This document shows positions 20,356-36,574 of a stretch of 64,000 nt of DNA, piece by piece. The position numbers and the translations under genes were made by a program. Under the pieces are notes generated by a model, which ran no database searches, was not told the DNA's origin, and saw only the letters and a program-made list of their open reading frames with translations. Source of the DNA: Minisyncoccota bacterium (lineage in GTDB: Bacteria; Patescibacteriota; Minisyncoccia; UBA6257; 2-01-FULL-56-20); contig DATJLR010000001.1 in NCBI GenBank assembly GCA_035509435.1, positions 58,732 through 122,731 on the forward strand, in the 5' to 3' direction. The number at the start of each line of letters is the position of its first letter. The first letter of the stretch is position 1.

Positions 20356-21147
20356 ATGATCACAGAAACGGACTATTCAAATTACATCATCGAGAACTTC
20401 CCCGACGTTACCGACCAATTCTCTGATAGAGATCATATAAGCGGTCTTTGTACGAACTGCGGGCGCGAAGTCGCGTTCGACATTACGAGTTATGGCGTCT
20501 CATATGTGAACCTTCCGCCGGTCTTTCCAGAAGAACCTCCTCAAAAAATGGCTGCGGGCAACCGACCGAGAACGATTATGTTCCGGTGCCCCATAAAGGG
20601 GTGCGGACACCTCAAGCTCTGGGTCGTGGTGGAGTTGGAGCTTTTGAAAGAGGGGTCAAAAAAGAGCGAGCGACACACCTATCTGTTGAACTCTATCCCA
20701 AACGAAAACGAAGAGATTGAAGGAGTACCCAATGACCCTCCTCAGCTTAAAGCCGCCTACAAAGAAGCAATACGTTGTCTCAATGCAAACGCGCCGATGG
20801 CCGCGGCGGCCATGTTTCGTCGGGCGTTGCAGGTAATCACGCGTGACATCCTCGGAGCAAAACCTGGTAAGCTCGCCAATGAACTCAAGGAACTGAAGGG
20901 CTCTACAAATCCGCTAGGCATCGCTCTCACAAACGACTTCTCCCAAAATGCCTATATCCTCAAGGAGGCCGGCAATCAGGGCGCACATCCCGACGATGAT
21001 CTCGACCTTCTCTCGTTCGATCCAGAAGACGCGGAGTATCTTCACCAGCTTTTCGCCGAAGTCGTCGCCGAGATTTTCGTCGCACCGGCAGCCGCAAAAA
21101 AGGCGCGGGAGGGATTTCTTAAAAAGCGGAAGATAACGGCACAGTAA
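20356..21147 (+). CDS. Zinc-ribbon plus DUF4145-domain protein
   Basis: N-terminal CTNCGRE...CPIKGCGH zinc ribbon. C-terminal AAAAMFRRALQ...ILKEAGNQGAHPDDD...DAEYLHQLFAEVV matches the DUF4145 pattern often fused to restriction or Abi proteins. Confidence 0.55.
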   Translation: MITETDYSNYIIENFPDVTDQFSDRDHISGLCTNCGREVAFDITSYGVSYVNLPPVFPEEPPQKMAAGNRPRTIMFRCPIKGCGHLKLWVVVELELLKEGSKKSERHTYLLNSIPNENEEIEGVPNDPPQLKAAYKEAIRCLNANAPMAAAAMFRRALQVITRDILGAKPGKLANELKELKGSTNPLGIALTNDFSQNAYILKEAGNQGAHPDDDLDLLSFDPEDAEYLHQLFAEVVAEIFVAPAAAKKAREGFLKKRKITAQ

Positions 21148-21151
21148 AAGC

Positions 21152-21496
21152 ATGGATCTGCCCAATAAGACGAGGAATGACGAAGTGAAGGCCGCCATCG
21201 ACCTACTTAAAAGCGGCAAATTAGATCTCGGAGCGTCGACCGAAAAACACATCGGGATCGCCAATGCGTTGGCCTCTCTCGACGTTGCAGAGTCCCTTCA
21301 AATCACATCTGTGCAGATCGAAGAGTCATCGTCGCAAGATAGAGTTGCGCTAAACACCGCCGTCCACGCGCTCATTTCATCAAACGAAAAACTGGCGGAG
21401 AGCAATAAAAAATATGCACGCGCCATGATGTGGCTAACGGGAGCCATCGTTCTCGTGGGCGTCGCGCAGATAATCGCCTCGTTCTTCGCCAAATAG
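21152..21496 (+). CDS. Small protein with a C-terminal TM helix (hypothetical)
   Basis: 114 aa. Lies 5 nt after the DUF4145 gene, so it is likely co-transcribed. Confidence 0.45.
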   Translation: MDLPNKTRNDEVKAAIDLLKSGKLDLGASTEKHIGIANALASLDVAESLQITSVQIEESSSQDRVALNTAVHALISSNEKLAESNKKYARAMMWLTGAIVLVGVAQIIASFFAK

Positions 21497-21500
21497 TATT

Positions 21501-22001
21501 ATGGCATCCAAAGAACGCCTCGAAAAAGCAGCCGCCGTCATCACGATCATCGGCTTCCCCGTAATCGCCGTCTCAATGCTTTTCGGCTTCTACCAACTCA
21601 AGGCAGCATCCGATCAACTGACCGCAATCCAGAAAGTAACAGCTTCACAAAATAATATCGCGCTCAACGCGGAGTTCTTCAACGATCCGACGAACATTGG
21701 CATCATCAATGACCTCTACAACAATACCCCGATCCTCGTGGAGCATGGCGGCCAATATAGTGATGCCCAGCTCGACAAATATCTTGGCGACTTCGACACA
21801 ATCAGCGACGCCTATGACGAGGGCTTCCTCTCGGAAGCGGATCTCTGTGACTCCTTCTCCTACTACATCGCGGCAACGATGCAGAATAAGGAGATCCAAA
21901 AATACATGACGGCGGAGGCCAAGCAGGACTCCAGCTTCTATGGCGGGTTGCCGGAACTCAGCTCGGACGTGACGAATAGCACCGATACGGATTGCCACTA
22001 A
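21501..22001 (+). CDS. Small protein with an N-terminal TM helix (hypothetical)
   Basis: 166 aa. Lies 5 nt after the previous gene. Confidence 0.45.
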   Translation: MASKERLEKAAAVITIIGFPVIAVSMLFGFYQLKAASDQLTAIQKVTASQNNIALNAEFFNDPTNIGIINDLYNNTPILVEHGGQYSDAQLDKYLGDFDTISDAYDEGFLSEADLCDSFSYYIAATMQNKEIQKYMTAEAKQDSSFYGGLPELSSDVTNSTDTDCH

Positions 22002-22018
22002 CGCGGGAGGCTACGCGA

Positions 22019-22074
22019 TTGACAATAGGGCATAAATAATGATATTATAATTCCACTTTCCGAGAGTCTCGGAA
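22019..22074 (+). promoter_or_regulatory. Promoter (TTGACA ... TATTAT/TATAAT) overlapping a perfect 17-bp palindromic operator, TTCCGAGAGTCTCGGAA
   Basis: TTGACA at 22019, a -10 at about 22043-22051, the palindrome at 22058..22074, then AGGAGG at 22096 and a GTG start at 22109. Confidence 0.6.
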
Positions 22075-22108
22075 GGCAGCTCTTCACAACAGAATAGGAG
22101 GTAGAGCA

Positions 22109-22426
22109 GTGGTGAGCAGCAGAGACAGAGTAGGCGCTGCAAGCACCGGTCTATCACAGGCAACTTTGGTAAGAGGCGTGGTAACGGCCGTTCATGAAGG
22201 AGGCGAAGGATTTGCTTCGACCTATCTTCATGATGCGATTGACGGCATCCCAGAAGGGACGCACATCACGTTTTCGCTGAAGGACTGGCAGGGCGGCAGT
22301 ACGCTGCCCCGCAAAGGACAGGTGGTCAGCTTAGAACAGATAACCCTCTTCGAGAAAGGTTGGCGGGCGCTGTGCGCCAAGCCGATCGGCATCGACGGAG
22401 GCAGACAGAGAGGAGCACGCAGATGA
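22109..22426 (+). CDS. Small hypothetical protein (GTG start)
   Basis: 105 aa. AGGAGG lies 7 nt upstream. Its stop overlaps the next gene's ATG (ATGA). Confidence 0.45.
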   Translation: MVSSRDRVGAASTGLSQATLVRGVVTAVHEGGEGFASTYLHDAIDGIPEGTHITFSLKDWQGGSTLPRKGQVVSLEQITLFEKGWRALCAKPIGIDGGRQRGARR

Positions 22427-23205
22427 GAGCCGAAGCAAGGGCGCAGGGACTTCCTAAGGGAAGCGCCATGGACTGCCTGAAGCATTACCTCGAGCAGCTT
22501 CCGTGGGGCGACCAGAGCTCCACCGAAGCGCGAAAACCCATGGCCGATTTTCTCGGAATCAACTCCGACTCGATCAGGCGGTGGTTCACCGGCGATACCC
22601 AGCCGAAAGGTTTGGTGCTCGTGAAGCTGCGGTATTTTCTGGAAGATCAAGGATACCGCATTGAAGAGCTCGAAGGACTTCAGCCGCTGGCGCGCCAATT
22701 GGGGAGACTCATTTCCAACGGCGTGATCAGCTACGAGGAAACGGCGAAGGAGCTCGGCTTCACCGAGGTCTCCGACATCCTTCGCGCGCTCCACGCGAAA
22801 GCCCCCTTCTCAAGCAAACAGATGGCGGGAATAGCGCGCATCTGTGCAGAGCATCCGCTGGAGGTCCAAGAAACCACCAGCGCACCCGCCATCGCGCTTT
22901 TGTCCCGTGCGGTCGCCCTCCAAGGGCAGGCGCGGAGCGCAATACGGGACCGGGTCGAGGAGGACATCATCCATCTTCTCGATGGCCTGAACGGGCTTTG
23001 CGCCGTCCTTGAGCCGCGACTCGAACACATGCTGTCGGACGGGTTTACGCCCGAACAACGGCAGGCGTTCCGGGAAAAGGCGGGGCGGCACCGCGTGTTC
23101 GATATGGCCAATCGCTTCTATCGGCTCAACAAGCAGCTGAATGCCCTGTGCAGCGAGAAAGCCCGCGAGATCACTTCAACCACGCCAACCCAGAACCAGA
23201 GATAG
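22423..23205 (+). CDS. Hypothetical protein with an N-terminal HTH-like segment (putative regulator or system component)
   Basis: ATGA translational-coupling overlap with the upstream gene. GINSDSIRRWFTGDTQP resembles an HTH. 260 aa from MRAEARAQ. Confidence 0.5.
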   Translation: MRAEARAQGLPKGSAMDCLKHYLEQLPWGDQSSTEARKPMADFLGINSDSIRRWFTGDTQPKGLVLVKLRYFLEDQGYRIEELEGLQPLARQLGRLISNGVISYEETAKELGFTEVSDILRALHAKAPFSSKQMAGIARICAEHPLEVQETTSAPAIALLSRAVALQGQARSAIRDRVEEDIIHLLDGLNGLCAVLEPRLEHMLSDGFTPEQRQAFREKAGRHRVFDMANRFYRLNKQLNALCSEKAREITSTTPTQNQR

Positions 23206-23217
23206 AGGGAGATCAAG

Positions 23218-24897
23218 ATGCAGACCGCAGAAAGCAGCAAGATCGACTTTCACCACGGACAAGCGCTCTTGCGGGTCGCCGGGCATTACCCGACGCTCGC
23301 GGAAGTTGTCTACGAGGCCGTCCAGAACGCTCTGGACGCCGACGCCACGAACATCAACGTGGCCATCAACCACAAGAAGCGGACGCTCACGGTGTCGGAC
23401 GACGGCGTGGGAACGACGCGGAGCCGCTTCGAGGACGCACTCCTCTCCGTGTGCAAGGGCATCAAGGACGGGGACAAGCTCGGCCAGTTCGGAATGGGCC
23501 TCATCGCCCCTCTCGGCAAGTGCCAGCGGTTCACGTTCATCTCCACGCCGAAGAGCAATCCTCGGGCCTACCTGCAGTGGACGTTCTCTACGGACGACAT
23601 CTGCGGGCAGGAGAAGATCGACGGCATTCCCGTCGAACCTTTGCCCGACCTGCACTTCGAACGCGAGGGGAGCCGCAGCGGCGTCGCGTGGCGCACCCAA
23701 GTGAAGCTTTACAACTTTACGAAGGACCGCCTGCTGAGCCGCATGACGGCGTCTTCCCTTCGGGAGGGCATCCTCGAGCGGTTCTCGACGGCAATGCGAC
23801 GCCGGGGCGTGACGGTCAACGTCGAGATCGTCTCCTCCGACGGAGAAGTTTCGGCGGAGAAGATCGTCGCTGACGTCTACGAAGGCAAGCGACTGCCGAT
23901 GGAGTACATTCGCGAGAAGGATGCGGGACAGACTACGTTCCAACTCTACATCGCGAAGAAAACCCAGAAGGGCCGCCGCGGCAAAGTGGTCATCGGGGAG
24001 TCCGGCAAGGATTTCACGATCAGCTTTGCGCAGTTCGCGAGCCACGCGGGGGAACTGCTTGACAGCGACGTCTGCGACGCTCTGGAGTCCGGCGTGTTCG
24101 AAGGGCAGATCTTCACCGAGAAGGCGAAGCTCGACCCGAACCGGCGGCATTTCATCGCCAACGACGCGCTCATGGGCCTCTGCATCGCCATCGACGAGTG
24201 GTATCGCAAAATCGGTGCGAGCCACATCGCGAAGGTGAAGGAAGAGGCGCAGGACGACCGCTACCAGCAGCTCGGCATGCGTTCCATGCGGGTGGTCGAG
24301 GGGCTTCTCGAACAACCGGCCTTCGCCTATCTGAAGGACGTCGTGAAGTCGTTCCGCATCGGTACGATCGGTACGCGGCACACTCGGCCCGATGCCAAAA
24401 TCATCGGGACACAGAGCGAGCCGTCGATCTCGATCGACGCGGCAAAGAGCAACGGCAACGGCGGGGGTGGCAACGGCGGAGGGGGTAGCGACCCGAAGTC
24501 GGAGCATCCCGGTCACACGCCCTACACCGTGAGCGGCCCGAAAGGACGCCAGCGGATGATGGTGCGTGGCAACAGTCAGGGCCTCCAATTCCTCTATGAG
24601 GAGATGGAAGGTTCTGACCGGCTCTGGGATCTCGACAGCAATGCGGGGGTCCTTCGCTATAACACACGCCACCCGCTGTGGGCCGAGTGCGAGTCAGATG
24701 AGCGTGCGCTCATGCGGTTTCAGGAGCACATCGCCATCACGGCACTCACCCTCGAAACGGTTCCGAAGGAATGGAAGGAGCAGCATCGCCGGATGACCGA
24801 CGACGCAATGCCTTCCATCGCTTTCTGGCTCCTCAAGGGTGACGAACTTGCAGGGCGCCGCGCGGGACGGCCGAAAGGTTCCGCTTCCGCGAAGTAA
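23218..24897 (+). CDS. GHKL-superfamily (MutL/MORC/Hsp90-like, HATPase_c_3-type) ATPase with an uncharacterized C-terminal domain
   Basis: Bergerat-fold motifs: N-box YEAVQNALDADATNI, G1 box VSDDGVGT, G2 box GQFGMGL. A Gly/Asn-rich linker NGNGGGGNGGGGSD precedes a roughly 120-aa C-terminal domain. Confidence 0.7.
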   Translation: MQTAESSKIDFHHGQALLRVAGHYPTLAEVVYEAVQNALDADATNINVAINHKKRTLTVSDDGVGTTRSRFEDALLSVCKGIKDGDKLGQFGMGLIAPLGKCQRFTFISTPKSNPRAYLQWTFSTDDICGQEKIDGIPVEPLPDLHFEREGSRSGVAWRTQVKLYNFTKDRLLSRMTASSLREGILERFSTAMRRRGVTVNVEIVSSDGEVSAEKIVADVYEGKRLPMEYIREKDAGQTTFQLYIAKKTQKGRRGKVVIGESGKDFTISFAQFASHAGELLDSDVCDALESGVFEGQIFTEKAKLDPNRRHFIANDALMGLCIAIDEWYRKIGASHIAKVKEEAQDDRYQQLGMRSMRVVEGLLEQPAFAYLKDVVKSFRIGTIGTRHTRPDAKIIGTQSEPSISIDAAKSNGNGGGGNGGGGSDPKSEHPGHTPYTVSGPKGRQRMMVRGNSQGLQFLYEEMEGSDRLWDLDSNAGVLRYNTRHPLWAECESDERALMRFQEHIAITALTLETVPKEWKEQHRRMTDDAMPSIAFWLLKGDELAGRRAGRPKGSASAK

Positions 24898-25000: not shown

Positions 25001-25099
25001 TCTCGACTTCAACCACCCCTCGCGCTATGATGTAATCACAACTGAAAAGGATGCCTAAACCATCGCGGTAACGCGGTGGCATGGCGGAAGTGCACAAGT

Positions 25100-25143
25100 C
25101 CTACGAGGACAAAGAACCCATCACATGGGGCTGTCCTCGTAGG
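25100..25143. repeat. Perfect 12-bp inverted repeat (CCTACGAGGACA / TGTCCTCGTAGG) with a 20-nt spacer
   Basis: Read directly from the sequence. Intergenic, between the GHKL gene's terminator and the PH-SHOCT gene. Confidence 0.6.
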
Positions 25144-25246
25144 CCATGCCGGAAACGGCGTGGAGGGCGCAAGCTCTCACCCATGCGGTGGGTTCTTTGG
25201 TCGATAAGAAGCTCCTCCGCACGGGGAGCATTTCTATATCACCACC

Positions 25247-25416: not shown

Positions 25417-26076
25417 ATGGGTATCTTCACCAGTAAGGCAAGGGAGCGAGAAAAACTCAAAGCCACACTCATTCCATTGATCGCAGAGAAGGATAAGTTC
25501 CTCAAGGACGCGGTAGCGATGAAGCGTATCCCCACGATCACGCCACCGGCCTCTCTCATTCTCGAAAAAGACGAACGCCTCATCCTCGCTGATCCCACGA
25601 CGCTTCGAGAGGCGCGAGCGGTACGCGAAAGCAGCGGCGGCTTCGGGAGCGTGCGCGTGGGTCACGCAAGGATTGGCAGTTATAGCGGAACCTCTTTCAG
25701 CACGCTCAAATGGGCTGACCTCGACAAGGGATCGCTCTACCTCACCAACCATCGCCTCATTTTCCAGGGCAACAAAGAAAATCGGATCATCCCCCTCAAG
25801 AGCATCTCAGCGCTCCAACCCATCCCCTTCGGAACAATCAGTATGAGTGTTGTGAATAAACCCAAAAATATGCAATTCCCCGTGAGAAACCCATACCTCT
25901 GGGAAGCCGTCACGAAAATCGAACGGACATCACTCGGCGACAACATTGTGCTGAAAAAAGCCCAAGCACAAAACGGCAATCTCGATGATCTCGAAAAGCT
26001 CGCCGACCTCAAGGGAAAAGGCATCATCACCGATGACGAGTTCGCAGCGAAGAAGAAGCAGATCCTAGGGCTTTAA
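25417..26076 (+). CDS. Bacterial PH-like domain plus C-terminal SHOCT-domain protein
   Basis: C-terminal LEKLADLKGKGIITDDEFAAKKKQILGL is a typical SHOCT motif. The middle resembles bPH/YokE-like folds. Confidence 0.5.
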   Translation: MGIFTSKAREREKLKATLIPLIAEKDKFLKDAVAMKRIPTITPPASLILEKDERLILADPTTLREARAVRESSGGFGSVRVGHARIGSYSGTSFSTLKWADLDKGSLYLTNHRLIFQGNKENRIIPLKSISALQPIPFGTISMSVVNKPKNMQFPVRNPYLWEAVTKIERTSLGDNIVLKKAQAQNGNLDDLEKLADLKGKGIITDDEFAAKKKQILGL

Positions 26077-26117: not shown

Positions 26118-27962
26118 ATGGCAGAACCGACCAATCCAGAAGAACTCCTTGAGGCCCTCAAACTACTCCAAGCCGTGGAGGCAGATGATCCCGAGGTCAT
26201 AAAAAAATATCGCTACGTCATCTACGCACGAAAATCGACGGACGAGAAAGACAAACAACAACGCTCACTCGGCGACCAAGTGCGCGAGTGCGAGGAGTTC
26301 GCTGGATATAACAATCTGACGATCGCGAAAATCATCGAGGAGTCCGAGTCCGCTAAAGAGCCAGATATTCGGCCGAAGTTCCGCACTATGATGAACGATG
26401 TGGCCGCGGGCAAATACCAAGGCATCATCGCGTGGCATCCCGATCGCCTCTCCCGCAACATGAAAGAGGCAGGCGAAATCATCGACCTACTCGACAAGGG
26501 CATCATTAAGGATCTCAAGTTCAAGAGCTTCACCTTCGTGAATGATGCGAGCGGCAAGATGACGCTCGGCATCACCTTTGTGCTCGCAAAACAATACTCC
26601 GAGCAACTCGGGGCAAATATCGCGCGCGGCAACAAGCGCAGCATCGAAGAAGGAAAATATCCGAACAGAACAAAACCTGGTTATTACAAAGACGGAGACG
26701 GGCGCCTCCGTCCCGATGGACAGAACTTCATCCTCATCAAGCGGGCATTCCAAATGCGCCTCGAAGGTGCGACGTGCGAAAAAATTGCGGACTTTCTCAA
26801 TGAGAACGGATACCAGAGATGGAATAAAGACGGCACGCATACGCCATTCAAGATGAGCGTCAGACGGGTCTATGACTTCATGCTCGATCCGGCTTACGCC
26901 GGCGTCATCGTTTACGGCAAGAAGGGCGGCGGGGTCAACCTCATGAAGGAATACGACTTCCAACCAGCGATCTCCGTTCCCGACTTTATGAAGATCAACA
27001 ACCTGACCGATCGAAGCCAGGTTCTCCGACTTGCGCGAAAATATCGCCGTCACGAAGACGTGCGAGCGGATCTCATGCGAGGCATGGTCTTCTGCTCGAA
27101 ATGCGGGGAAAACATGGGTCCAGGCATAACAGCCAAGAAGAACGTGTCGGGCCCCAAGAACTATCTCTACTACCGATGCACCACGCCGGATTGTCCGCGC
27201 AAGGGAAAGTCCACACGGGCGCGAGTGATTACTGACTATATCCTCGACTTCCTGGCTCAAAAACCGTTCTCCTCCCGACGGGCCTATGAGCACTATGCCG
27301 AAGAAATGCCTCGCGTGGCGGCCGAGCGAGAGCGAAACCTCCGCACTCTCCTCGTGGAGAAAAAGACCGAGCGGACGCGACTTGAGAACAAAATGGCGAA
27401 AATACGCGACCGGCTCCTTGAGATCGGCAAAGACGAGAAAATCGCCCAGGATTACCAGGGTGATCTTGCTGCGGGCGAGAAGGATCTCAAGGGGCTGGAG
27501 GGCGAAATAGGCCAGATTGAGCGAAAATTAAAGGCCAGCAAGGCCGCAATCCTCACCTACGAGCAATTCCTCGAACTATGGGAAAAGACCCCGAAGATAC
27601 TGGCTAAAATGAAACCGCTCACCCAAAAGGACGCGATCATCCGAAAAATGTTCTCGAACTTCACGGTAAGCGCAAAAAATGTAGAGAAAATGGAGCTCGC
27701 AGAGCCGTTCAAGGCGCTCTGCGACCCCAAATTGCTGGGGGGTGGAGATCGAAGTGCGTTATATAAATTCCTTCTTCATTCCTTCTTCGCGCCTTTCTTA
27801 TACTGTCGCCAAGCTCCAAAACTGAGCACTACAGTTAATAAAACTGCCGAGGCCCACCGGAAAAAAATATCGCTATTGAGCCGATCACTTGGCGGTACAT
27901 CGGTGGTATTTATTGATGGATCGGCCGGTAGATATACTACTTCTACGCCTTGCCCTACCTGA
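26118..27962 (+). CDS. Large serine recombinase (resolvase/integrase family) 1. The C-terminal ~60 codons are possibly non-native.
   Basis: YVIYARKSTDE (catalytic Ser), HPDRLSRN and a recombinase domain with a zinc-ribbon region (CSKCGENMG...CTTPDCPRKGK) and a coiled coil. The 3' end extends into the AT-rich block and overlaps an antisense gene. Confidence 0.8.
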   Translation: MAEPTNPEELLEALKLLQAVEADDPEVIKKYRYVIYARKSTDEKDKQQRSLGDQVRECEEFAGYNNLTIAKIIEESESAKEPDIRPKFRTMMNDVAAGKYQGIIAWHPDRLSRNMKEAGEIIDLLDKGIIKDLKFKSFTFVNDASGKMTLGITFVLAKQYSEQLGANIARGNKRSIEEGKYPNRTKPGYYKDGDGRLRPDGQNFILIKRAFQMRLEGATCEKIADFLNENGYQRWNKDGTHTPFKMSVRRVYDFMLDPAYAGVIVYGKKGGGVNLMKEYDFQPAISVPDFMKINNLTDRSQVLRLARKYRRHEDVRADLMRGMVFCSKCGENMGPGITAKKNVSGPKNYLYYRCTTPDCPRKGKSTRARVITDYILDFLAQKPFSSRRAYEHYAEEMPRVAAERERNLRTLLVEKKTERTRLENKMAKIRDRLLEIGKDEKIAQDYQGDLAAGEKDLKGLEGEIGQIERKLKASKAAILTYEQFLELWEKTPKILAKMKPLTQKDAIIRKMFSNFTVSAKNVEKMELAEPFKALCDPKLLGGGDRSALYKFLLHSFFAPFLYCRQAPKLSTTVNKTAEAHRKKISLLSRSLGGTSVVFIDGSAGRYTTSTPCPT

Positions 27963-28237
27963 ATAGCTTGGCAATCTAAGCTATTATCTGAGGAATCATA
28001 TTGTTGTCCTCCAACACTAAATTCATATGAGTAAGACGCGTGATTGGCACAATCGATACTGGTAATGGCTCCCTGTGTAGCTTTGCCATTCTTAAGTAAT
28101 TGCTCGTATTTGTTTATATCCGAAGATGTTACTAAGAACAAAATTCCGTAGACGAAAAGGAAAATACATATTGCCAAGATGATCGAGTAAAGAAGCTTTA
28201 CTCTTGAGGAAGGCTTATCTATTTCTGCTGTATTCAT
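27776..28237 (-). CDS. Small membrane protein (N- and C-terminal TM helices, DUF3592-like topology)
   Basis: 153 aa. Last gene of the minus-strand KAP operon. Its 3' region overlaps the recombinase-1 3' end. Confidence 0.45.
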   Translation of the reverse strand: MNTAEIDKPSSRVKLLYSIILAICIFLFVYGILFLVTSSDINKYEQLLKNGKATQGAITSIDCANHASYSYEFSVGGQQYDSSDNSLDCQAIQVGQGVEVVYLPADPSINTTDVPPSDRLNSDIFFRWASAVLLTVVLSFGAWRQYKKGAKKE

Positions 28238-28266
28238 GCCTTAACTATATCTAAGGTTTGGTTTTA

Positions 28267-28848
28267 TTAGTTCGGCTTTGTGTGAGTTACTGCATCATAA
28301 ACATCCATGAAATTGCTAGTTCCCAGCTCTTGAATGCTGATATTTTGAATAGGAACTTTAACCGTTAGGCCGTTCATAGTATTGATCCACAAAAGCAGGG
28401 TGCCTGAATAAATTGAACTGCTTTGTTCAGTCGTTGTAAAAAATATGTTATAGAGATCAAGAGTCGAAGAGTTTTGTGGGAATCCTAATTCTGCTATTAC
28501 CGGATGAAGATCTATATTGATGGAATTATCTGGAAAGATAGTCTGCTGAATTGGAAATAGAACAGTTTTACCACTTATCGAAGCTTCATCAACATAAATG
28601 GAAGATTCTCCGTGGTTGGTCAAGGTTAAAAGTAATTTTTGACTATCAAATGTTTCGCCGATACTCGGACTGAAGTATTTTAAATAACTAAGGTCCCGCA
28701 GTTGAGAATTAATCGCTCCTTGCTGTAAATCAATAGCTATCTGCATGGCTCCTAAAAAAAGTGCCACCACAACAGGAATGAAGAACTTCAAGAAATCAAA
28801 CCAATTATTTCTCCACCACTCCTTCAGCTTAGGCAATGCATTGTTCAT
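28267..28848 (-). CDS. Hypothetical protein with an N-terminal TM anchor
   Basis: 193 aa. Starts 32 nt downstream of the KAP NTPase stop. Confidence 0.45.
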   Translation of the reverse strand: MNNALPKLKEWWRNNWFDFLKFFIPVVVALFLGAMQIAIDLQQGAINSQLRDLSYLKYFSPSIGETFDSQKLLLTLTNHGESSIYVDEASISGKTVLFPIQQTIFPDNSINIDLHPVIAELGFPQNSSTLDLYNIFFTTTEQSSSIYSGTLLLWINTMNGLTVKVPIQNISIQELGTSNFMDVYDAVTHTKPN

Positions 28849-28879
28849 TTTTTTAAACCAATTGGAATAATAGGTGCAA

Positions 28880-31687
28880 CTATTCCTTGATTAATTCCTC
28901 AACTTGAGATTCTGCCAATATCCTTGGATTATGACCGACGAAAGCTTTTATGGCTTTTTTAAAATTCTCATCCCGATTCTCCAATGTTTTTAGATTGGCA
29001 AAAAATGTGTCAGATGCATCCGAGGGCAAACCAATACTCTTTATCGCTTCCAGCCATCGCCGCAAAACAGTATCGTCCGGAATTTCATTGTGTCGGTTGA
29101 TAATATTGCGAACGACATCAACCTTAAACCTAGAATTCCCTTGGAATTCATCTGGAAAATCATAATGGATATACTCCAAGAAATCGAAAAGTAGAGGAAG
29201 GGGCTTCCCATTCAAATTATTAACGATGCCGCCCTTCTCGGCCTCGCTAAATTCTTTTGCCGGAAATTTTACCTCAGTGAGTAAATCGAGAGTTTGATAT
29301 GTGCGCCTGATCAAATCCTCTCGAATTTCCCTGTCAATCTGAAAAAGCTTTGTATTTGCTATCGCCTCTAAGATATTCTCTGGAGTATTTGCGGTTGTCT
29401 CTATGAATTGCCTAAGGCAACCATTAATTTCGTTAAGGAGTGGGTTACCTTCAAAACGAATCCGTAGTAAAATTTTTACAATTAAAACTCGCATCCCCCA
29501 ATCTCCGTAAGTATTATAAAGCGCCAGAACCTGACTCGAGAAAGACCTCAATTGAGTATTAGAGACTTCAGGAGTAAGTTGTGATAGTTTAATTTTTTCG
29601 GCAAATTCCAAAGCTGCCAATAATACTTTTTCAGCATAAACCGTCTGGACGGGTTGATACTGCATGAGAAAAAAGAGTTGCCACAGAATTGGCCCATACA
29701 AAAGTGGTGTAAATGGCTTTTCTTCAGTTAAGAATTTTAATAGTTTCTCCAGTGTGGCAACCTGCTCTTCTCCTAATTGCCCCGGAAAAACAACTTCGCC
29801 CTTTAAATGATTTAAAACATTGGCCTTTGCTTGCGCTAGCTCTTTATTAAAAGGAGCAAATGCAGTCCAAGCGTTAGGTGAACTTACAAGGGAAAAAAGC
29901 TCTATGGGATCATTGACATTTTTATTTATTTCCTCAGGTCGAGACGCAATAGAATTTAAAAAGTGAGCAAAATTTTTCGCTATCGTATTTTGAGTCTTCC
30001 GGTGGAGACTAGAGAAACCTTCGTTAAATATTCTCGAAAAATCTATCTTATCTTCCACTGGTAAAAATCCCTCAGGTCTAATAAGCTCAAAAATCCTTTC
30101 AAGAAATTGCTCGAAGGCAACAAGATTGTCCTTATCAAACAAGCTATGAATTGAAACAAAAACATTGGTAAGCTTATCGATTTTATGTTCGTTATGTCGT
30201 ACATAATTTGATAACAACCCTTGAAATTCAGTCATTCCATCTACCTCGACAATCTTTTCATAAATTTTCTTCAATGCCTCCGTATCAATATTCTCGGCCG
30301 CAGTAATAAAGCTCTCCCATTCTGGAACCTTTTTTTGTTCTGGCGTTTCCTTGAGTGAGAAAAATAAATTGGCGCGTTCATCTGAAACCGTTGTTGTGGT
30401 ATTTATAAAATTTGAGAAGTCTTCGTCCCTAAATCTCTGATCATTAGAAAATGACCACGCTATAATTTGATCCAGCGAATCTGATGTCCTTAATACTTTT
30501 GCCTCAAGAATTTTATATAGTTCTGGCCACTTGGTTCTTATGACTAATATTTTCGCTAAAAATGGAATTTTTTCTTTATCTAAAATGTATTCCATATTCC
30601 TCTGCTTAGCCAAGAGGTATTGAGCCGTAAGGGAATTTAGGAATTGGATAATCTCACGGGGATTATTTCTGAAGGCCCGGCTTATAATAAAAACCAGCGA
30701 ACTATTACCTTGAAAATCAGCTACTTTTGTTTTGATAATATTTTTCGATATATAGTTATCGAGTTCAAGATCCAATAAGCGCGGGATCCTGATAGAGAGG
30801 TTAAAAAACTTTCTTAAAAATTCTTCCGTATCAAAATCCTCGCCGAAAGTTCCTCGAAGTTGATCGTTTATAGCCTGGTCATCACAAGGGATAAGGAAAA
30901 TAGCTCCAACGCCTTCCGCTGTTTTTTCATTAGCCAAAAAAGTTTTGATATCGCTCAGTAATGCGACAGCCTTCTCTTTGTCCAATCGATCAAGATTATC
31001 AATTATGATAAGTATCTTGTCTTTTAGCTTCTTGAGCGCTTCACTATAATAATATTCAAAACCTTCAGCAGAATCGGTTCGAGGAGTCTCGACATTTATT
31101 TGAGATATATCAACGATATTCGCCAAAAACTTATATATAACCGCAAAGATGCCTAGCGTAAGTATGGCGGATATACCCTTCTGTGCCAAAGCGGCAAAAG
31201 CTTGATCAAATCCAAAATTCCAAATCCATTGATTAACAGCAAAAAGGGCGAGGAGAAAAAGTAACGTGACAACGACGGGGACAAAAATCTTTACGATTAT
31301 TTTGTCAAAGCTACTTTTTAAACTCTCTATCAAGGAGAAGGTCCTAGGAACTGTTAGTGATTGATTTAATGTTTCCTTATAGCGAAGCGATCCTTGAAAG
31401 ATGTCTTTATCAAACTCAATAAGAAACTGGCGTCGAAAAGAGTCGCGTTCATATTTCCAAGTATCAAAATAAAAAACCTTGCTCCCTTCAGCAACGAGAT
31501 GATCCCGTAATAGATAACAGATAGAGCTTTTGCCAGAGCCCCACTGTCCATAAAGTCCGATCGTAAGCGGCGCGGGACTTTTAATATATATTTCCTTGAT
31601 CTGCTCAGCAATATCTGAATAGCCGAAATGATCAGCATCATTCCTTCCGAGGGGAGCATCCTTTATAATCTCAAATTCATTGCTCAT
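28880..31687 (-). CDS. KAP-family P-loop NTPase (935 aa)
   Basis: Walker A GQWGSGKSS. Two TM helices inserted into the P-loop domain (IFVPVVVTLLFLLALFAV..., AILTLGIFAVIYKFL), the KAP hallmark. Walker B ILIIIDNLDR. Long alpha-helical C-terminal region. Confidence 0.75.
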   Translation of the reverse strand: MSNEFEIIKDAPLGRNDADHFGYSDIAEQIKEIYIKSPAPLTIGLYGQWGSGKSSICYLLRDHLVAEGSKVFYFDTWKYERDSFRRQFLIEFDKDIFQGSLRYKETLNQSLTVPRTFSLIESLKSSFDKIIVKIFVPVVVTLLFLLALFAVNQWIWNFGFDQAFAALAQKGISAILTLGIFAVIYKFLANIVDISQINVETPRTDSAEGFEYYYSEALKKLKDKILIIIDNLDRLDKEKAVALLSDIKTFLANEKTAEGVGAIFLIPCDDQAINDQLRGTFGEDFDTEEFLRKFFNLSIRIPRLLDLELDNYISKNIIKTKVADFQGNSSLVFIISRAFRNNPREIIQFLNSLTAQYLLAKQRNMEYILDKEKIPFLAKILVIRTKWPELYKILEAKVLRTSDSLDQIIAWSFSNDQRFRDEDFSNFINTTTTVSDERANLFFSLKETPEQKKVPEWESFITAAENIDTEALKKIYEKIVEVDGMTEFQGLLSNYVRHNEHKIDKLTNVFVSIHSLFDKDNLVAFEQFLERIFELIRPEGFLPVEDKIDFSRIFNEGFSSLHRKTQNTIAKNFAHFLNSIASRPEEINKNVNDPIELFSLVSSPNAWTAFAPFNKELAQAKANVLNHLKGEVVFPGQLGEEQVATLEKLLKFLTEEKPFTPLLYGPILWQLFFLMQYQPVQTVYAEKVLLAALEFAEKIKLSQLTPEVSNTQLRSFSSQVLALYNTYGDWGMRVLIVKILLRIRFEGNPLLNEINGCLRQFIETTANTPENILEAIANTKLFQIDREIREDLIRRTYQTLDLLTEVKFPAKEFSEAEKGGIVNNLNGKPLPLLFDFLEYIHYDFPDEFQGNSRFKVDVVRNIINRHNEIPDDTVLRRWLEAIKSIGLPSDASDTFFANLKTLENRDENFKKAIKAFVGHNPRILAESQVEELIKE

Positions 31688-32014
31688 CGAATTAGCTTAA
31701 CTCCAATAATGCCGGATTTTTACTGAAAAATAAAGAGCTCGTCAAACAATCTGCGATTGGGAACTCCTGATCGGATTTACAAGCAAAATCGCTTATCTTA
31801 TAGTTAATCCACAACTAAATAGGGTTGCCTAAACTCAGCAATTTGCAGGGCATGGCACATAGAAAACCGATGAAGGCAGAAAGCTCTCAATCAGAGCCAC
31901 CTTCATCGGTCATATCTGGAAACGGATATGGGTCGCAAGACCAGCTGGTTGGGAGCTTTCTGGCATAAAACTCTCAACCGGCCCTAAAGGTCGGTTTTCG
32001 TTTTAAATAAAACC

Positions 32015-32254
32015 ATGAATTTAAACTCACTTCCAAGACATCAAAAGACAAAGATGTTCGTTATCGCTAACCGCAAACATTTCTTTGCGGATGGCATCAT
32101 AAAGAAAGACCTAGAAGAAGCGGAGTATAAAAGACTGGGGCTTCCGGCTCCTCTCTATGCCATGTACGGAAAATATATTCCCGGCAAAAGCTACACACTT
32201 GATCCTATGGCGGACAGCATCGGAGAAATGCAGAGCAGAATAATTATCTGGTAA
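32015..32254 (+). CDS. Hypothetical small protein
   Basis: 79 aa in the AT-rich block, 5 nt before the next gene. Confidence 0.3.
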   Translation: MNLNSLPRHQKTKMFVIANRKHFFADGIIKKDLEEAEYKRLGLPAPLYAMYGKYIPGKSYTLDPMADSIGEMQSRIIIW

Positions 32255-33658: not shown

Positions 33659-34048
33659 ATGAAACTTAAACCTACCGGAAATTTTATGCTGCTACCGAAA
33701 GAACTCGTTTCCAGCCATCTGAAATTACTCGGCACCAGAGACTTCTCCGTCCTGCTGGCCCTTTGGTACCTTCACCACTCCTATTCGACACCTTGTCCGT
33801 GGATAACGGACGAGCGGCTCTCGAACGACTTCGGCTTCAGCAAGAAGAATCTCCAGCGATCAAGGAAGCGACTCAAGGAAAATGGCTTCATCGACTACAA
33901 AATCGGCTACCGGATCGGAAACCACGCAAGAGCAACGCGTTATCTCCTCGTCCCTGATGCCAAGATCCGCGCCTCATTCCGTATCCCTGACGAGCCAAAG
34001 TGGCTACCTGCTCGGCAAGGACATAGGAAGCCAAATAGACCACCTTAA
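33659..34048 (+). CDS. Winged-helix DNA-binding protein (possible replication initiator or regulator of the element)
   Basis: ITDERLSNDFGFSKKNLQRSRKRLKENGFIDYK is a wHTH-like segment. Confidence 0.4.
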   Translation: MKLKPTGNFMLLPKELVSSHLKLLGTRDFSVLLALWYLHHSYSTPCPWITDERLSNDFGFSKKNLQRSRKRLKENGFIDYKIGYRIGNHARATRYLLVPDAKIRASFRIPDEPKWLPARQGHRKPNRPP

Positions 34049-34606: not shown

Positions 34607-34727
34607 TCTCTTATATTTAACATGCAACGGAACATTGAGAACCAGGATCAGGGATCAGCCGCAATCGATCGCCTCGCCGAGATCCTGATTCTCATTGCAA
34701 TTTCCCTGCAAGAAAAAAAGGAATAAT

Positions 34728-36248
34728 ATGTCGTCAGCAATCCTTTACCTCCGCGTCAGCTCTACGGCGCAGGCCGCAAAAGAAAATCCCATTGAGACCC
34801 AACAAGAGGCCTGTCTTGCCTATGCCAAGCAAAAAGGATACGAGATCAACCTTGAGACCGGAATTTATATGGACAAAGGAATCTCCGGCAGGACGGATGA
34901 AAGAGCGGACTTCAAGCGGATGGTGGATCGCCTTAAAACGGACACCTCGATAGAAGCCGTTATTGCCTACGACATTTCAAGGATATTCCGAAACGGCGTC
35001 GAATACTTCCTTTTTAAGGAAGACATCGAGAGGCACGGCAAACGATTCCTTTCTGTTAGTGAAGCACTAAGCGGAGACAAGAACCCTGCCAATTGGATGA
35101 TGGAATGGATTTTGGCTGGTTTTGCCGAATTCAGATCCCGTCAAGATGGAGAAAAGATAAGGCTCGGCATGCAACACAAAGCGATATCTGGCATCCTTCC
35201 CGGTAAAGCACCTTACGGCTACAAGAACGTAAGAGAGCACCGATCCGGAGATAAAGACAAAAGATGGATCGAGGTGGATGAGAACGAAGGACCTTGGGTC
35301 ACGAAAGCTTTTACTGACTTCGCGAGTGGCGCATACTCGCTTCACGATCTTGTAAGAAAACTGCGAGAAGAAGGCTTCCCAACCCGAAACGGAAAACCTC
35401 TCGCCGTAAGTACGATCGAACAAATCCTCAAATATAAACTGTATATCGGCCATCTTTCTTGGGGAGGAGTTGAAAACCCAAGCAGTACCCAACCCAAACT
35501 TACCGACGAGGAAACATTTTATAAGGTGCAAGCTATTCTTTCCACTCGAAACCTCGGAGCTTGCCGGAAACGAAAGCATCGATTCCTTTTGCGAGGTATT
35601 TCCTATTGTGGAGAATGTGGAGCACGAATCAACGCAGGCAATCATCACGGCAGAAAAGGTACTTACCCCTACTATAGTTGTCAAAAACGGATTGGTGGAA
35701 ATAAGGTCTTCTGCTCTCAGCCGATGTTTGCCTTGCCGGAAGCAGAAAAGCAATTTGCTCGTCTTATGAAATCTATTCAGCTCTCTGAATCAGCGACCGA
35801 AAGGCTTGCCGATCGAGTCAAGGAATCCGCTAAGAAGTTCCAAGCCAGCAACCATGAAATAAGAACCTCGCTAGCAAAACAACTGGAAGAAACAGAGAGC
35901 CGGAAAAAATCTCTGACCGAGAAATATATAGACGAAAGCATCGATCGAGAAACCTATCTGGCGCATAAGGCAGAACTCGAAGCGAAGGAGGCTAAATGCC
36001 GCACCGAGCTTGGCAAAATCGACAGCAAATTATCGTCATGGAAAGAAACCACGGAGAAAGCGCTGGCCCTCATTAAGAACTGCTACGAGGCATATCAGAA
36101 AGCAAATTATGATCAAAAAATCGCCTTAGCCCACACAATTTTCGAAAAATTGACCATAAAAGACAGGAAGATAACTCAGGCAAAACTCAAAGAACCCTTC
36201 AATTACCTGCTGAAAAAGAAGGTTTCACGGAATACTGTGTTTATATAA
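34728..36248 (+). CDS. Large serine recombinase 2 (integrase), adjacent to ssrA
   Basis: AILYLRVSSTAQ (catalytic Ser), DKGISGRTDERADFKRM, YDISRIFRN, and a zinc-ribbon region (CGECGARI...YYSCQK) followed by a coiled coil. RBS AAAGGA upstream of the internal ATG at 34728. Confidence 0.8.
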   Translation: MSSAILYLRVSSTAQAAKENPIETQQEACLAYAKQKGYEINLETGIYMDKGISGRTDERADFKRMVDRLKTDTSIEAVIAYDISRIFRNGVEYFLFKEDIERHGKRFLSVSEALSGDKNPANWMMEWILAGFAEFRSRQDGEKIRLGMQHKAISGILPGKAPYGYKNVREHRSGDKDKRWIEVDENEGPWVTKAFTDFASGAYSLHDLVRKLREEGFPTRNGKPLAVSTIEQILKYKLYIGHLSWGGVENPSSTQPKLTDEETFYKVQAILSTRNLGACRKRKHRFLLRGISYCGECGARINAGNHHGRKGTYPYYSCQKRIGGNKVFCSQPMFALPEAEKQFARLMKSIQLSESATERLADRVKESAKKFQASNHEIRTSLAKQLEETESRKKSLTEKYIDESIDRETYLAHKAELEAKEAKCRTELGKIDSKLSSWKETTEKALALIKNCYEAYQKANYDQKIALAHTIFEKLTIKDRKITQAKLKEPFNYLLKKKVSRNTVFI

Positions 36249-36256
36249 GAGTCCGG

Positions 36257-36574
36257 TGGTGGAAGCGGGCGGAATCGAACCGCCGTGTAAAGATAGTGCC
36301 GATGGGCCGTCTACGAGCGTAGTCTAGCGAATGCTAAGCGAGTGATCCTGTTTCTCGCGGCGCGCTTAGGATCGTCTGCGCGACGCCAGTTCCCTTATAT
36401 AAGACCGGTGACAGCCCAAGGAACCCGGACTGGCCGATCCCCGCGGTTACGCGTTAAGCGTAAGCGAGGGCTGGAACTCGGTTAGAGTTGGCAGTTGTAG
36501 TTTTTGCAGCGATAACGGCGCTGCGAACGGCTCGCAAACCCACGGATTGTCTTTATCGAAGCCAGTGCGCTCCC
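36257..36574 (-). ncRNA. ssrA: tmRNA (SsrA)
   Basis: The reverse complement begins GGGAGCGCACTGGCTTCGA. The 3' end has a T-arm GGCGGTTCGATTCCGCC, a 7-bp acceptor stem GGGAGCG/CGCTTCC, discriminator A and an encoded CCA. An internal reading frame ends ...PALAYA then TAA. Confidence 0.8.

What the first reader, a model, noticed from the sequence alone, without database searches (positions are those of the whole stretch)
27776..31687. KAP-family P-loop NTPase operon with two small membrane proteins in an AT-rich island
A 935-aa KAP NTPase is followed on the same strand by two small TM proteins, with gaps of 32 and 30 nt. The NTPase has Walker A GQWGSGKS, two TM helices inserted inside the NTPase fold, and Walker B IIIDNLDR. 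KAP NTPases are poorly characterized and are enriched in defense islands. The three genes are arranged like a module on horizontally acquired DNA.
Basis: partly seen in the sequence, partly recalled or inferred. Interest (0 to 1): 0.55.

Follow-up and report, generated by a model that had tools for sequence, protein, structure and literature searches.

The report
Membrane KAP ATPase on mobile island
A membrane-anchored KAP-family ATPase gene, of a kind recently shown to protect bacteria from viruses, sits on foreign AT-rich DNA beside the tmRNA gene of a Paceibacterota (CPR) genome. The two small membrane-protein genes behind it are not conserved partners, so this is an ordinary single-gene defence candidate, not a new three-gene system.

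Summary
The three minus-strand genes are real. They are a 935-aa KAP NTPase (28880-31687), a 193-aa single-TM protein (28267-28848) and a 153-aa DUF3592 protein (27776-28237). The gaps between them are 31 and 29 nt. GC3 is about 0.36, against about 0.8 in host genes.

The KAP protein has Walker A and Walker B motifs, a TM hairpin inserted between them, and a 530-aa all-helical solenoid C-terminus.

- None of 87 KAP-homologue loci encodes a relative of either small protein.
- The closest KAP (66% identity) lacks both small genes.
- The 193-aa family has only four relatives among 1.8 billion representatives, and none was seen beside a KAP or DUF3592 gene.

Orthologues are solitary, in variable island contexts, and always AT-richer than their flanks.

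The best reading is a stand-alone Tmn/EF_KAP-like membrane NTPase defence candidate. It is carried as cargo in a serine-recombinase island at ssrA. The small genes are locus-specific passengers.

One side observation is more novel. LOOT RNAs (RF03000) and LSR1-like recombinases recur around these KAP genes in CPR genomes, and LOOT has a covarying 3' extension beyond its Rfam model.

The parts
28880..31687 (-). KAP-family P-loop NTPase, 935 aa. It has an N-terminal P-loop core (Walker A at residue 47, Walker B at 227), a two-helix TM hairpin inserted at about 125-194, and a C-terminal all-alpha solenoid at about 400-935.
   Evidence: Pfam PF07693 E=2.7e-27. PADLOC PifA, QatA and PDC-S20 partial hits. 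AF2 pLDDT 86. Hydropathy and motif conservation in 41 orthologues. Foldseek gives only generic HEAT/ARM solenoids plus Cdc6/Orc1.
28267..28848 (-). 193-aa protein with an N-terminal TM anchor and a beta-rich domain. It belongs to a near-orphan family and is a likely co-transcribed passenger, not a conserved KAP partner.
   Evidence: No Pfam, PADLOC, PHROG or NCBIfam hit. Only 4 relatives among 1.84 billion representatives. None was seen next to KAP. The AF2 model is of low confidence, pLDDT 53.
27776..28237 (-). 153-aa DUF3592 protein with a TM, beta domain, TM layout. Its 3' end is overlapped antisense by the recombinase read-through.
   Evidence: Pfam PF12158 28 bits against cutoff 25.3. TM segments at 19-37 and 124-142. 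Codon-position GC favours this frame. No homologue was found, not even a self-hit.
26118..27962 (+). Large serine recombinase LSR1. The native part ends at about 27750. The last 67 or so codons are read-through into the AT-rich block.
   Evidence: Pfam Resolvase, Recombinase and Zn_ribbon_recom. It aligns end-to-end with LSR2 only to residue about 540. GC3 drops from 0.667 to 0.365 in the tail.
31826..31942 (+). LOOT RNA copy 2 (RF03000), divergent from KAP and 139 nt from its start. A promoter-like site lies at 31776-31804, a conserved 3' extension reaches about 31962, and a terminator-like hairpin lies at 31976-32004.
   Evidence: Rfam 80.7 bits against gathering score 46.4. Promoter and terminator scan. 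Covarying 3' helix.
25052..25178 (+). LOOT RNA copy 1 (RF03000), lying upstream of the SHOCT/PH-like gene and LSR1 and on the same strand.
   Evidence: Rfam 70.1 bits.
34695..36248 (+). Large serine recombinase LSR2. Its stop codon lies 8 nt from the 3' end of the tmRNA gene.
   Evidence: Pfam Resolvase, Recombinase and Zn_ribbon_recom. Position relative to tmRNA.
36257..36574 (-). tmRNA (ssrA) gene, the probable integration landmark for the island.
   Evidence: ARAGORN. Rfam RF00023 108 bits. No second copy of its 3' end in the window.
33659..34048 (+). HTH_36 protein resembling a replication initiator, within the recombinase-proximal part of the island.
   Evidence: Pfam HTH_36 E=7.7e-4, below the curated cutoff. 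PHROG replication-initiation families at about 1e-4.

Best explanation
The 935-aa gene is a stand-alone, membrane-anchored KAP NTPase of the Tmn / EF_KAP / PifA kind, a single-protein antiviral (or anti-mobile-element) sentinel.

Proposed mechanism:
1. The TM hairpin inserted between Walker A and Walker B tethers the protein to the cytoplasmic membrane. The P-loop core and the C-terminal alpha-solenoid face the cytoplasm.
2. The fast-evolving solenoid is the recognition surface for an invader component.
3. Ligand binding is coupled to NTP binding or hydrolysis and to oligomerisation.
4. The output is exerted at the membrane, either by perturbing it or by blocking invader DNA entry or replication. 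No enzymatic effector domain is present.

The gene is AT-rich cargo acquired horizontally from another low-GC Patescibacteria lineage. It lies in a serine-recombinase island beside ssrA. The two downstream small membrane-protein genes were probably acquired and are probably transcribed with it, but they are locus-specific passengers and not required components.

Shown: family membership, motifs, TM insertion, fold class, foreign composition, island context, and non-conservation of the partnership.
Inferred: the defence role, topology, the sensor role of the solenoid, oligomerisation, and the membrane output.
For: - KAP identity and motifs.
- TM hairpin: a hydrophobic insert lies between Walker A and B in all 39 orthologues in which both motifs were found, and 31 of the 41 aligned have two or more such segments. 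AF2 agrees.
- Conservation: the P-loop core is 54-58% identical across 40 orthologues, and the solenoid only 22-26%.
- Fold: the solenoid matches only generic HEAT/ARM repeats, and no nuclease or other effector fold was found.
- Orthologues are solitary in variable contexts: between type I HsdM and HsdS, beside a terminase/methylase module, and next to tRNAs.
- The KAP gene is AT-richer than its flanks in 11 of 11 orthologue loci checked.
- LSR1-like recombinases lie within 6 kb of KAP in 6 CPR loci.
- Partnership absent.
- Literature: single-gene KAP NTPases with unrelated C-terminal regions protect against phage and need Walker B and the C-terminal region (PMC13552941). Tmn is a KAP NTPase with two TM helices in the P-loop domain and alpha-superhelical domains (bioRxiv 10.1101/2022.08.21.504612). 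QatA forms hepta- or octamers (PMC13279940).
Against: - No experiment bears on this protein or on any CPR KAP NTPase.
- It is distant from every validated example. PADLOC hits cover only the N-terminal NTPase part. No Tmn model hit at E<=0.01. QatA NCBIfam scored 87 bits against a cutoff of 600. No plasmid PifA or Tmn match appeared by tblastn.
- EF_KAP was reported not to act by abortive infection, so the membrane-damage output is only one option.
- Tight spacing and identical composition of the three genes leave room for a local functional link.
- CPR bacteria are episymbionts, so a membrane NTPase could serve host-symbiont or element-element conflict rather than phage defence.
Confidence: 0.68

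Rival explanations
1. The three genes are a real but rare three-component membrane system. The KAP NTPase is the sensor or switch, and the 193-aa and DUF3592 membrane proteins are its effectors or adaptors, for example pore-forming or envelope-modifying partners.
For: - Same strand with 31- and 29-nt gaps that leave no room for promoters.
- Near-identical GC3 of 0.355, 0.366 and 0.37.
- All three are membrane proteins.
- KAP lacks an obvious effector domain.
- A few orthologues are followed by unrelated small multi-TM proteins, in L004/L014, L011 and L018.
Against: - 0 of 87 KAP loci have relatives of either protein.
- 0 of 317 neighbouring ORFs have the DUF3592-like layout.
- The 66%-identical KAP is followed directly by a convergent gene.
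- 31 of 78 loci have no co-directional downstream ORF.
- Relatives of the 193-aa protein lie in other contexts.
Confidence: 0.12
2. The KAP NTPase is not an antiviral protein but serves the mobile element or the CPR lifestyle. It might exclude competing elements, act in partitioning or maintenance at the membrane, or act at the symbiont-host interface. The defence-database hits would then reflect only the shared P-loop.
For: - It lies between recombinase/LOOT modules and recurs with LSR1-like recombinases and LOOT in CPR loci.
- PADLOC and NCBIfam hits are partial and far below family cutoffs.
Against: - Orthologues also occur with no recombinase or LOOT within the flanks fetched, for example inside a type I R-M operon, which is typical for defence cargo.
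- All tested KAP proteins with unknown C-terminal regions gave phage protection.
- The fast-evolving C-terminus fits an arms-race sensor.
Confidence: 0.15
3. The two small genes form their own unit, for example a superinfection-exclusion or envelope-modifying pair, and merely share a transcript with KAP.
For: - Both are predicted to expose a beta-rich domain outside the membrane.
- Relatives of the 193-aa protein lie in AT-rich or R-M/IS-rich patches without KAP.
- In the literature checked, DUF3592 is described only as a transmembrane protein of unclear function in another conflict locus, LXG toxin clusters.
Against: - The pair itself is not conserved either. No DUF3592-like gene follows the 193-aa relatives in L009, L089 or L135.
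- No family in PADLOC or PHROGs matches either protein.
Confidence: 0.05

Closest known systems
Tmn (single-gene 'transmembrane NTPase' defence, Gao et al. 2020; studied in bioRxiv 10.1101/2022.08.21.504612)
   Same: Single protein. KAP P-loop with two TM helices inserted in the NTPase domain. Alpha-superhelical non-catalytic region. Carried on mobile DNA (for Tmn; for this protein).
   Different: No PADLOC Tmn model hit at E<=0.01 and no tblastn match to plasmid-borne Tmn. The solenoid here is longer (about 530 aa). The lineage is Patescibacteria. Function is untested.
EF_KAP and the metagenomic KAP NTPases fused to unknown C-terminal regions (PLoS Biol 2026, PMC13552941)
   Same: Stand-alone KAP NTPase with a TM helix in the KAP domain and a large C-terminal region without known domains. 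Linked to serine recombinases.
   Different: Those were found through small serine recombinases in Firmicutes and gut metagenomes, whereas large serine recombinases flank this one. EF_KAP has one N-terminal TM and one internal TM, and a 322-aa C-terminus.
PifA of the F plasmid (T7 exclusion)
   Same: KAP NTPase, membrane-associated, single protein, encoded on a mobile element. It is the best PADLOC hit (E=2e-21).
   Different: The best-scoring stretch of the match covers only residues 7-96 (2 stretches). The C-terminal region is unrelated. No F-plasmid match appeared by tblastn.
QatA of QatABCD
   Same: KAP NTPase core (PADLOC QatA 1e-18; NCBIfam NF041923 E=1e-24).
   Different: 87 bits against an equivalog cutoff of 600. 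No QatB, QatC or QatD is nearby. The hits to QatA cover only parts of the N-terminal NTPase region. Whether QatA has a TM hairpin was not checked here.
PADLOC candidate PDC-S20
   Same: The profile aligns over residues 4-480, nearly the whole 464-position model (E=5.5e-18), so the N-terminal half is of the same general type.
   Different: PDC-S20 is an unvalidated candidate. The 450-aa solenoid of this protein lies outside the model.

Membership tests
KAP family P-loop NTPases (Pfam PF07693; Aravind et al. 2004) | Significant match to the KAP_NTPase profile above the curated cutoff | tested here: met
   96.2 bits against cutoff 20, E=2.7e-27, residues 24-357.
KAP family P-loop NTPases (Pfam PF07693; Aravind et al. 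2004) | Walker A and Walker B motifs intact | tested here: met
   GQWGSGKS at 47 and IIIDNLDR at 227. G47, W49, G50, G52, K53, D230, N231, D233 and R234 are invariant in 41 sequences.
KAP family P-loop NTPases (Pfam PF07693; Aravind et al. 2004) | Two (or four) TM helices inserted within the P-loop domain | tested here: met
   Hydrophobic segments at 130-148 and 166-192 lie between the Walker motifs. AF2 helices at 119-156 and 162-194. 31 of 41 orthologues have two or more such segments. This rests on hydropathy only, with no experimental topology.
QatABCD system | QatA equivalog score | tested here: not met
   NCBIfam NF041923 scored 87.1 bits against cutoff 600.
QatABCD system | Adjacent QatB, QatC (QueC-like) and QatD (TatD) genes | tested here: not met
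   No PADLOC or Pfam hit of that kind in any neighbouring ORF.
Tmn single-gene defence | Match to the PADLOC Tmn model | tested here: not met
   Tmn is not among the hits at E<=0.01. I assumed from memory, without checking, that the PADLOC library contains a Tmn model.
Tmn single-gene defence | Architecture: TM hairpin in the KAP domain plus an alpha-superhelical region, acting alone | tested here: inconclusive
   The architecture is met. Solitary occurrence of orthologues is met. Activity is not testable here.
PifA (Pif exclusion) | Full-length similarity to PifA | tested here: not met
   PADLOC PifA gave 74 bits in 2 stretches, the best covering residues 7-96 of 935. No plasmid PifA hit.
Antiphage KAP NTPases with a variable C-terminal region (PMC13552941) | Phage protection that depends on Walker B and the C-terminal region | not testable with these tools
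   Needs expression and phage challenge.
   0 of 87 loci by tblastn at E<=1. 0 of 317 neighbouring ORFs with the DUF3592-like topology. The reverse look-ups were negative.
LOOT RNA (Rfam RF03000) | Score above the Rfam gathering threshold over the full model | tested here: met
   80.7 and 70.1 bits against 46.4, covering model positions 1-121 of 121.

The most novel reading that the evidence does not exclude
The KAP gene occupies a recurrent cargo position in a previously undescribed family of Patescibacteria integrative elements. The family is defined by an LSR1-like large serine recombinase together with the orphan LOOT RNA. LOOT would not be a free-standing sRNA. It would be a promoter-proximal structured leader with a switchable 3' helix that controls variable cargo genes lying immediately downstream.
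Probability: 0.3. Interest if true: 0.6.

Novelty: new member of a known kind. Interest (0 to 1): 0.3.

Why it matters
If the main reading is right, this adds a well-populated Patescibacteria clade (more than 40 full-length members) to the single-gene KAP NTPase defences that were validated only in 2026. It also shows a long, fast-evolving solenoid that could serve as a model sensor domain. Immune repertoires of CPR bacteria are poorly known, because their tiny genomes carry few recognised systems. A recurrent, horizontally moving KAP gene is therefore a useful marker.

The negative result also matters. The neat three-gene arrangement should not be entered into defence-system catalogues as a module.

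The side observation that LOOT RNA travels with serine recombinases and variable cargo gives an orphan RNA family its first genomic context and a testable regulatory hypothesis.

Tried and rejected
1. Conserved partnership: rejected (and the reverse look-ups).
2. QatABCD or PifA membership: rejected on score and on missing partner genes.
3. Structure of the 193-aa protein: the AF2 model had pLDDT 53, so no fold search was attempted.
4. LOOT on phage genomes: a search of IMG/VR with the pattern TGCCTAAAC-N(8-22)-GGCATGGC gave 44 hits. None of the 13 loci scanned contained a LOOT by Rfam. By my own estimate the number of hits is near chance for 17 specified bases. Rejected.
5. KAP or LSR2 in viral contigs: one distant KAP hit and no LSR2 hit.
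6. att duplication of the tmRNA 3' end: no second copy even with 3 mismatches. The weak resemblance at 27733-27757 is not convincing. The island's left boundary therefore stays undefined.
7. Terminase and methylase genes seen near LOOT in other loci are absent from the window, so the window's elements are not intact prophages.
8. The search for related loci with the 5-sequence alignment of the 193-aa family failed because no stretch was conserved enough. The 3-sequence version found one truncated locus.
10. The source contig could not be retrieved through the 193-aa protein.
Full report
**Observation**

The window carries three consecutive minus-strand ORFs at 28880-31687 (935 aa), 28267-28848 (193 aa) and 27776-28237 (153 aa). 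No promoter-like or terminator-like site falls in the gaps.

The 1-kb windows across 28-32 kb are 36-40% GC, against about 52-62% in most of the window. GC3 is 0.355, 0.366 and 0.37 for the three genes. Host genes such as infC, clpB and polX have GC3 of 0.78-0.83.

An identical copy of the 193-aa protein is annotated by NCBI in a Candidatus Paceibacterota MAG, on a contig of up to 460 kb. The host is therefore an unusually GC-rich CPR bacterium.

**The large protein**

- It matches Pfam KAP_NTPase over residues 24-357 (E=2.7e-27).
- Walker A (GQWGSGKS, residue 47) and Walker B (IIIDNLDR, residue 227) are intact. They are invariant across 41 aligned sequences.
- Two strongly hydrophobic segments (130-148 and about 166-192) lie between the Walker motifs.
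- An AlphaFold2 model built on 41 sequences has mean pLDDT 86. It shows a P-loop alpha/beta core and a long helical hairpin at 119-194, which is the low-confidence part, as expected for a membrane insert. Everything after about residue 400 is alpha-helical.
- Foldseek against the PDB returns only generic HEAT/ARM solenoids for the C-terminal half (karyopherins, E about 4e-4, TM about 0.17). It returns Cdc6/Orc1 for the N-terminal half.
- A profile search of PDB sequences finds no solved relative.
- The viral structure library returns a giant-virus KAP protein as its only hit at E<=0.001.
- No nuclease, protease or other effector fold is present.
- Across 40 orthologues the P-loop core is 54-58% identical. 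The TM insert is 18% identical but remains hydrophobic. The solenoid is 22-26% identical.

**Is the three-gene arrangement a module?**

The test is met.

- The word-indexed search found 306 KAP relatives. About 40 are full-length at 30-39% identity and one is at 66%. Most of those that a source names are from Patescibacteria.
- Eight neighbourhoods retrieved by exact look-up are all different. The 66% homologue is followed by a convergent bPH_2 gene. One orthologue sits between hsdM and hsdS of a type I R-M operon. One abuts a terminase/methyltransferase block. Others are solitary.
- I fetched 79 further loci from species-representative genomes. tblastn with the two small proteins at E<=1 found nothing in any of the 87 KAP loci.
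- In 31 of 78 loci no co-directional ORF starts within 200 nt of the KAP stop. Only about ten loci have a small hydrophobic ORF there, and none of these is related to the window's small proteins.
- A homology-free screen of 317 small ORFs within +-2.5 kb of KAP found none with the TM, 70 aa or more, TM layout of DUF3592. The window's own protein passes that filter.
- In the reverse direction, the 193-aa protein has only four relatives among 1.84 billion representatives.
- Their contigs carry no detectable KAP or DUF3592 gene. They show a convergent HTH-like gene (L009). They show an AT-rich patch in a 64% GC contig (L089). They show a C5-methylase patch with what I read as an endonuclease III-like neighbour (L135). 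They also show an IS3-type transposase neighbour.
- The upstream gene was cut off at the contig end on the contigs carrying P0122 and P0125. L089 begins inside the gene, so its upstream side could not be read either. Adjacency to KAP could not be excluded in those cases.
- The DUF3592 ORF has no detectable homologue and not even a self-hit.

The genes are probably co-transcribed here and were probably acquired together, given their matching composition. The partnership is nonetheless local.

**Known systems**

- PADLOC gives partial hits to PifA (2e-21), QatA (1e-18) and the candidate PDC-S20 (5.5e-18, residues 4-480). It gives nothing for the small proteins.
- The NCBIfam QatA equivalog scores 87 bits against a cutoff of 600, and no QatBCD genes are present.
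- tblastn against 72,556 plasmids finds only distant N-terminal matches, and none to F-plasmid pifA or E. coli tmn.
- In architecture the closest validated proteins are Tmn and the KAP NTPases of PMC13552941.
- Tmn is a KAP NTPase with two TM helices in the P-loop domain and alpha-superhelical domains.
- In PMC13552941, four stand-alone proteins with unrelated C-terminal regions protected Enterococcus faecalis from phage. Protection depended on Walker B and on the C-terminal region. EF_KAP showed no abortive-infection signature.
- QatA assembles into hepta- or octamers and binds DNA.

**Most likely mechanism**

This is inferred, apart from the architecture.

1. The hairpin anchors the protein in the membrane, with both large domains cytoplasmic.
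2. The rapidly diverging solenoid recognises an invader component.
3. Recognition is coupled to the NTPase cycle and to oligomerisation.
4. The output acts at the membrane, because no enzymatic effector exists.

Whether that output is membrane damage or a block to DNA entry or replication cannot be decided here.

**Genomic context**

- The AT-rich block lies in an island beside ssrA. The tmRNA gene is at 36257-36574 (-).
- A large serine recombinase (LSR2, 34695-36248) stops 8 nt from the tmRNA 3' end.
- A second recombinase (LSR1, 26118-27962) is only 23% identical to LSR2 but aligns with it end-to-end up to residue about 540.
- The last 67 or so codons of LSR1 run antisense over the DUF3592 gene's 3' end. 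They have GC3 of 0.365, against 0.667 in the LSR1 core, so they are a read-through.
- Both recombinase genes end in a similar GTG(C/T)GTT(T)ATATAA motif. In LSR1 the TAA is out of frame.
- No duplicate of the tmRNA 3' end exists in the window. This fits serine-recombinase integration and leaves the left boundary undefined.
- KAP orthologues elsewhere are AT-richer than their flanks in 11 of 11 loci checked.
- tRNA genes occur in eight of the 24 scanned loci. In three of them (L004, L011, L015) the tRNA lies within about 1.3 kb of KAP.
- Six CPR loci carry an LSR1-like recombinase within 6 kb of KAP.

All of this fits mobile cargo.

**Unexpected side finding: LOOT RNA**

- Rfam detects two complete LOOT RNAs (RF03000) in the window, at 25052-25178 and 31826-31942. 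Each lies upstream of one recombinase module and on the same strand. The second is 139 nt from the KAP start and divergent from it.
- LOOT also occurs in L005, L008, L013, L032, L038, L063 and L086.
- A covariance model built from nine copies adds L018 and a truncated copy in L001, the closest KAP locus.
- Five of the six CPR loci with an LSR1-like gene have LOOT. In L032 and L038 the two are adjacent and divergent, about 125-140 nt apart. In L063 and L086 the KAP gene lies between them.
- LOOT copies share a -10-like box and a conserved ACAACTGAA element upstream.
- A co-directional but non-homologous ORF starts 46-89 nt downstream in 8 of 11 cases.
- A conserved 3' extension lies beyond the Rfam model. 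It forms an 18-pair helix with the central segment. 87% of cells are paired, against 41-55% when the partner is slid. Twelve pairs show compensatory changes, against 2-7 in the slid controls. None of 500 shuffles reached the observed covariation score.
- That central segment is paired locally in the Rfam structure. In LOOT-2 a terminator-like hairpin follows, which gives a riboswitch- or attenuator-like layout.
- I could not measure the background density of LOOT in CPR genomes, so the enrichment is unquantified.
- A pattern search suggested LOOT on viral contigs, but the hits were not LOOT and I judge them to be chance matches.

**Verdict**

The sequence observation is right. The KAP and island interpretation is right. 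The 'module' interpretation is not supported.

The gene is a new, distant member of a kind that is now known, the single-protein membrane KAP NTPase defence candidates. It is notable mainly for its CPR distribution and its long solenoid. Interest is modest at 0.3.

The LOOT, serine-recombinase and cargo association is the more novel lead and deserves its own census.

Noticed in passing
window 25052-25178 (+) and 31826-31942 (+); also L001, L005, L008, L013, L018, L032, L038, L063, L086: Two complete LOOT RNAs (Rfam RF03000, an orphan RNA family) lie in the island, each upstream of a large serine recombinase module. LOOT recurs within a few kb of KAP orthologues in 9 other loci, and in 5 of the 6 CPR loci that carry an LSR1-like recombinase. 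Background density is unknown, so the enrichment is not quantified.
   Followed up: partly
window ~31877-31890 pairing with ~31949-31962; alignment A8 columns 125-146/207-224: LOOT has a conserved 3' extension beyond the Rfam model boundary. It forms an 18-pair covarying helix with the central segment (87% paired against 41-55% in slid controls; 0 of 500 shuffles). That segment is paired differently in the Rfam structure, so either there are alternative conformers or the Rfam model is truncated.
   Followed up: yes
window 31776-32015; 3' flanks of 11 LOOT copies: LOOT copies have their own -10-like box and a conserved ACAACTGAA element upstream. A co-directional ORF starts 46-89 nt downstream in 8 of 11 copies, but the ORFs are unrelated proteins, often small TM proteins. 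LOOT-2 and L038 have a terminator-like hairpin before the ORF. The layout suggests a cis-acting leader rather than a free sRNA.
   Followed up: partly
window 27741-27962: The 614-aa recombinase ORF (LSR1) is about 547 aa of real recombinase plus a read-through of about 67 codons, antisense to the DUF3592 gene. GC3 falls from 0.667 to 0.365. Both recombinase genes end in a similar GTG(C/T)GTT(T)ATATAA motif, and in LSR1 the TAA is out of frame by one missing T. The motif may be part of the att site.
   Followed up: partly
window 27776-28237 (-): The DUF3592 ORF is absent from the 5.8-billion-cluster protein collection even as a self-hit. The source annotation probably did not call it, likely because of the overlapping recombinase ORF.
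   Followed up: partly
window 20356-24897 (+): Further defence-like genes lie left of LSR1. There is a DUF4145 protein (20356-21147). There is also a 281-aa ORF followed by a 559-aa HATPase_c_3 (MutL/MORC/sacsin-like) protein with weak similarity to BbrUII/HgiDII restriction enzymes and MzaB (22360-24897). The HATPase gene has host-like GC3 (0.82).
   Followed up: no
L002 1142-3907 and L003 2034-4799: A 39%-identical KAP orthologue is inserted between hsdM and hsdS of a type I restriction-modification operon, with overlapping stop and start codons.
   Followed up: no
L008, L013, L032, L038, L086 (near LOOT): A conserved block lies next to LOOT in five CPR loci. It comprises a terminase-large-subunit-like protein, a 124-157-aa protein and a N6_N4 methyltransferase, which suggests a prophage-like element family. 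The block is absent from the window.
   Followed up: partly
11 KAP orthologue loci (L002, L004, L005, L007, L008, L010, L011, L013, L015, L063, L086): The KAP gene is AT-richer than its flanks in all 11 loci checked, by 0.6 to 17 GC points. tRNA genes occur in eight of 24 scanned loci.
   Followed up: partly
window 25417-26076 (+) and 36894-37511 (-); L001 3224-3778: PH-like membrane proteins recur around LOOT and KAP. A GRAM/PH-like + SHOCT protein follows LOOT-1. A bPH_2 protein follows LOOT in L001. Another bPH_2 gene lies just beyond the tmRNA. The first two are not detectably homologous to each other by BLAST.
   Followed up: no
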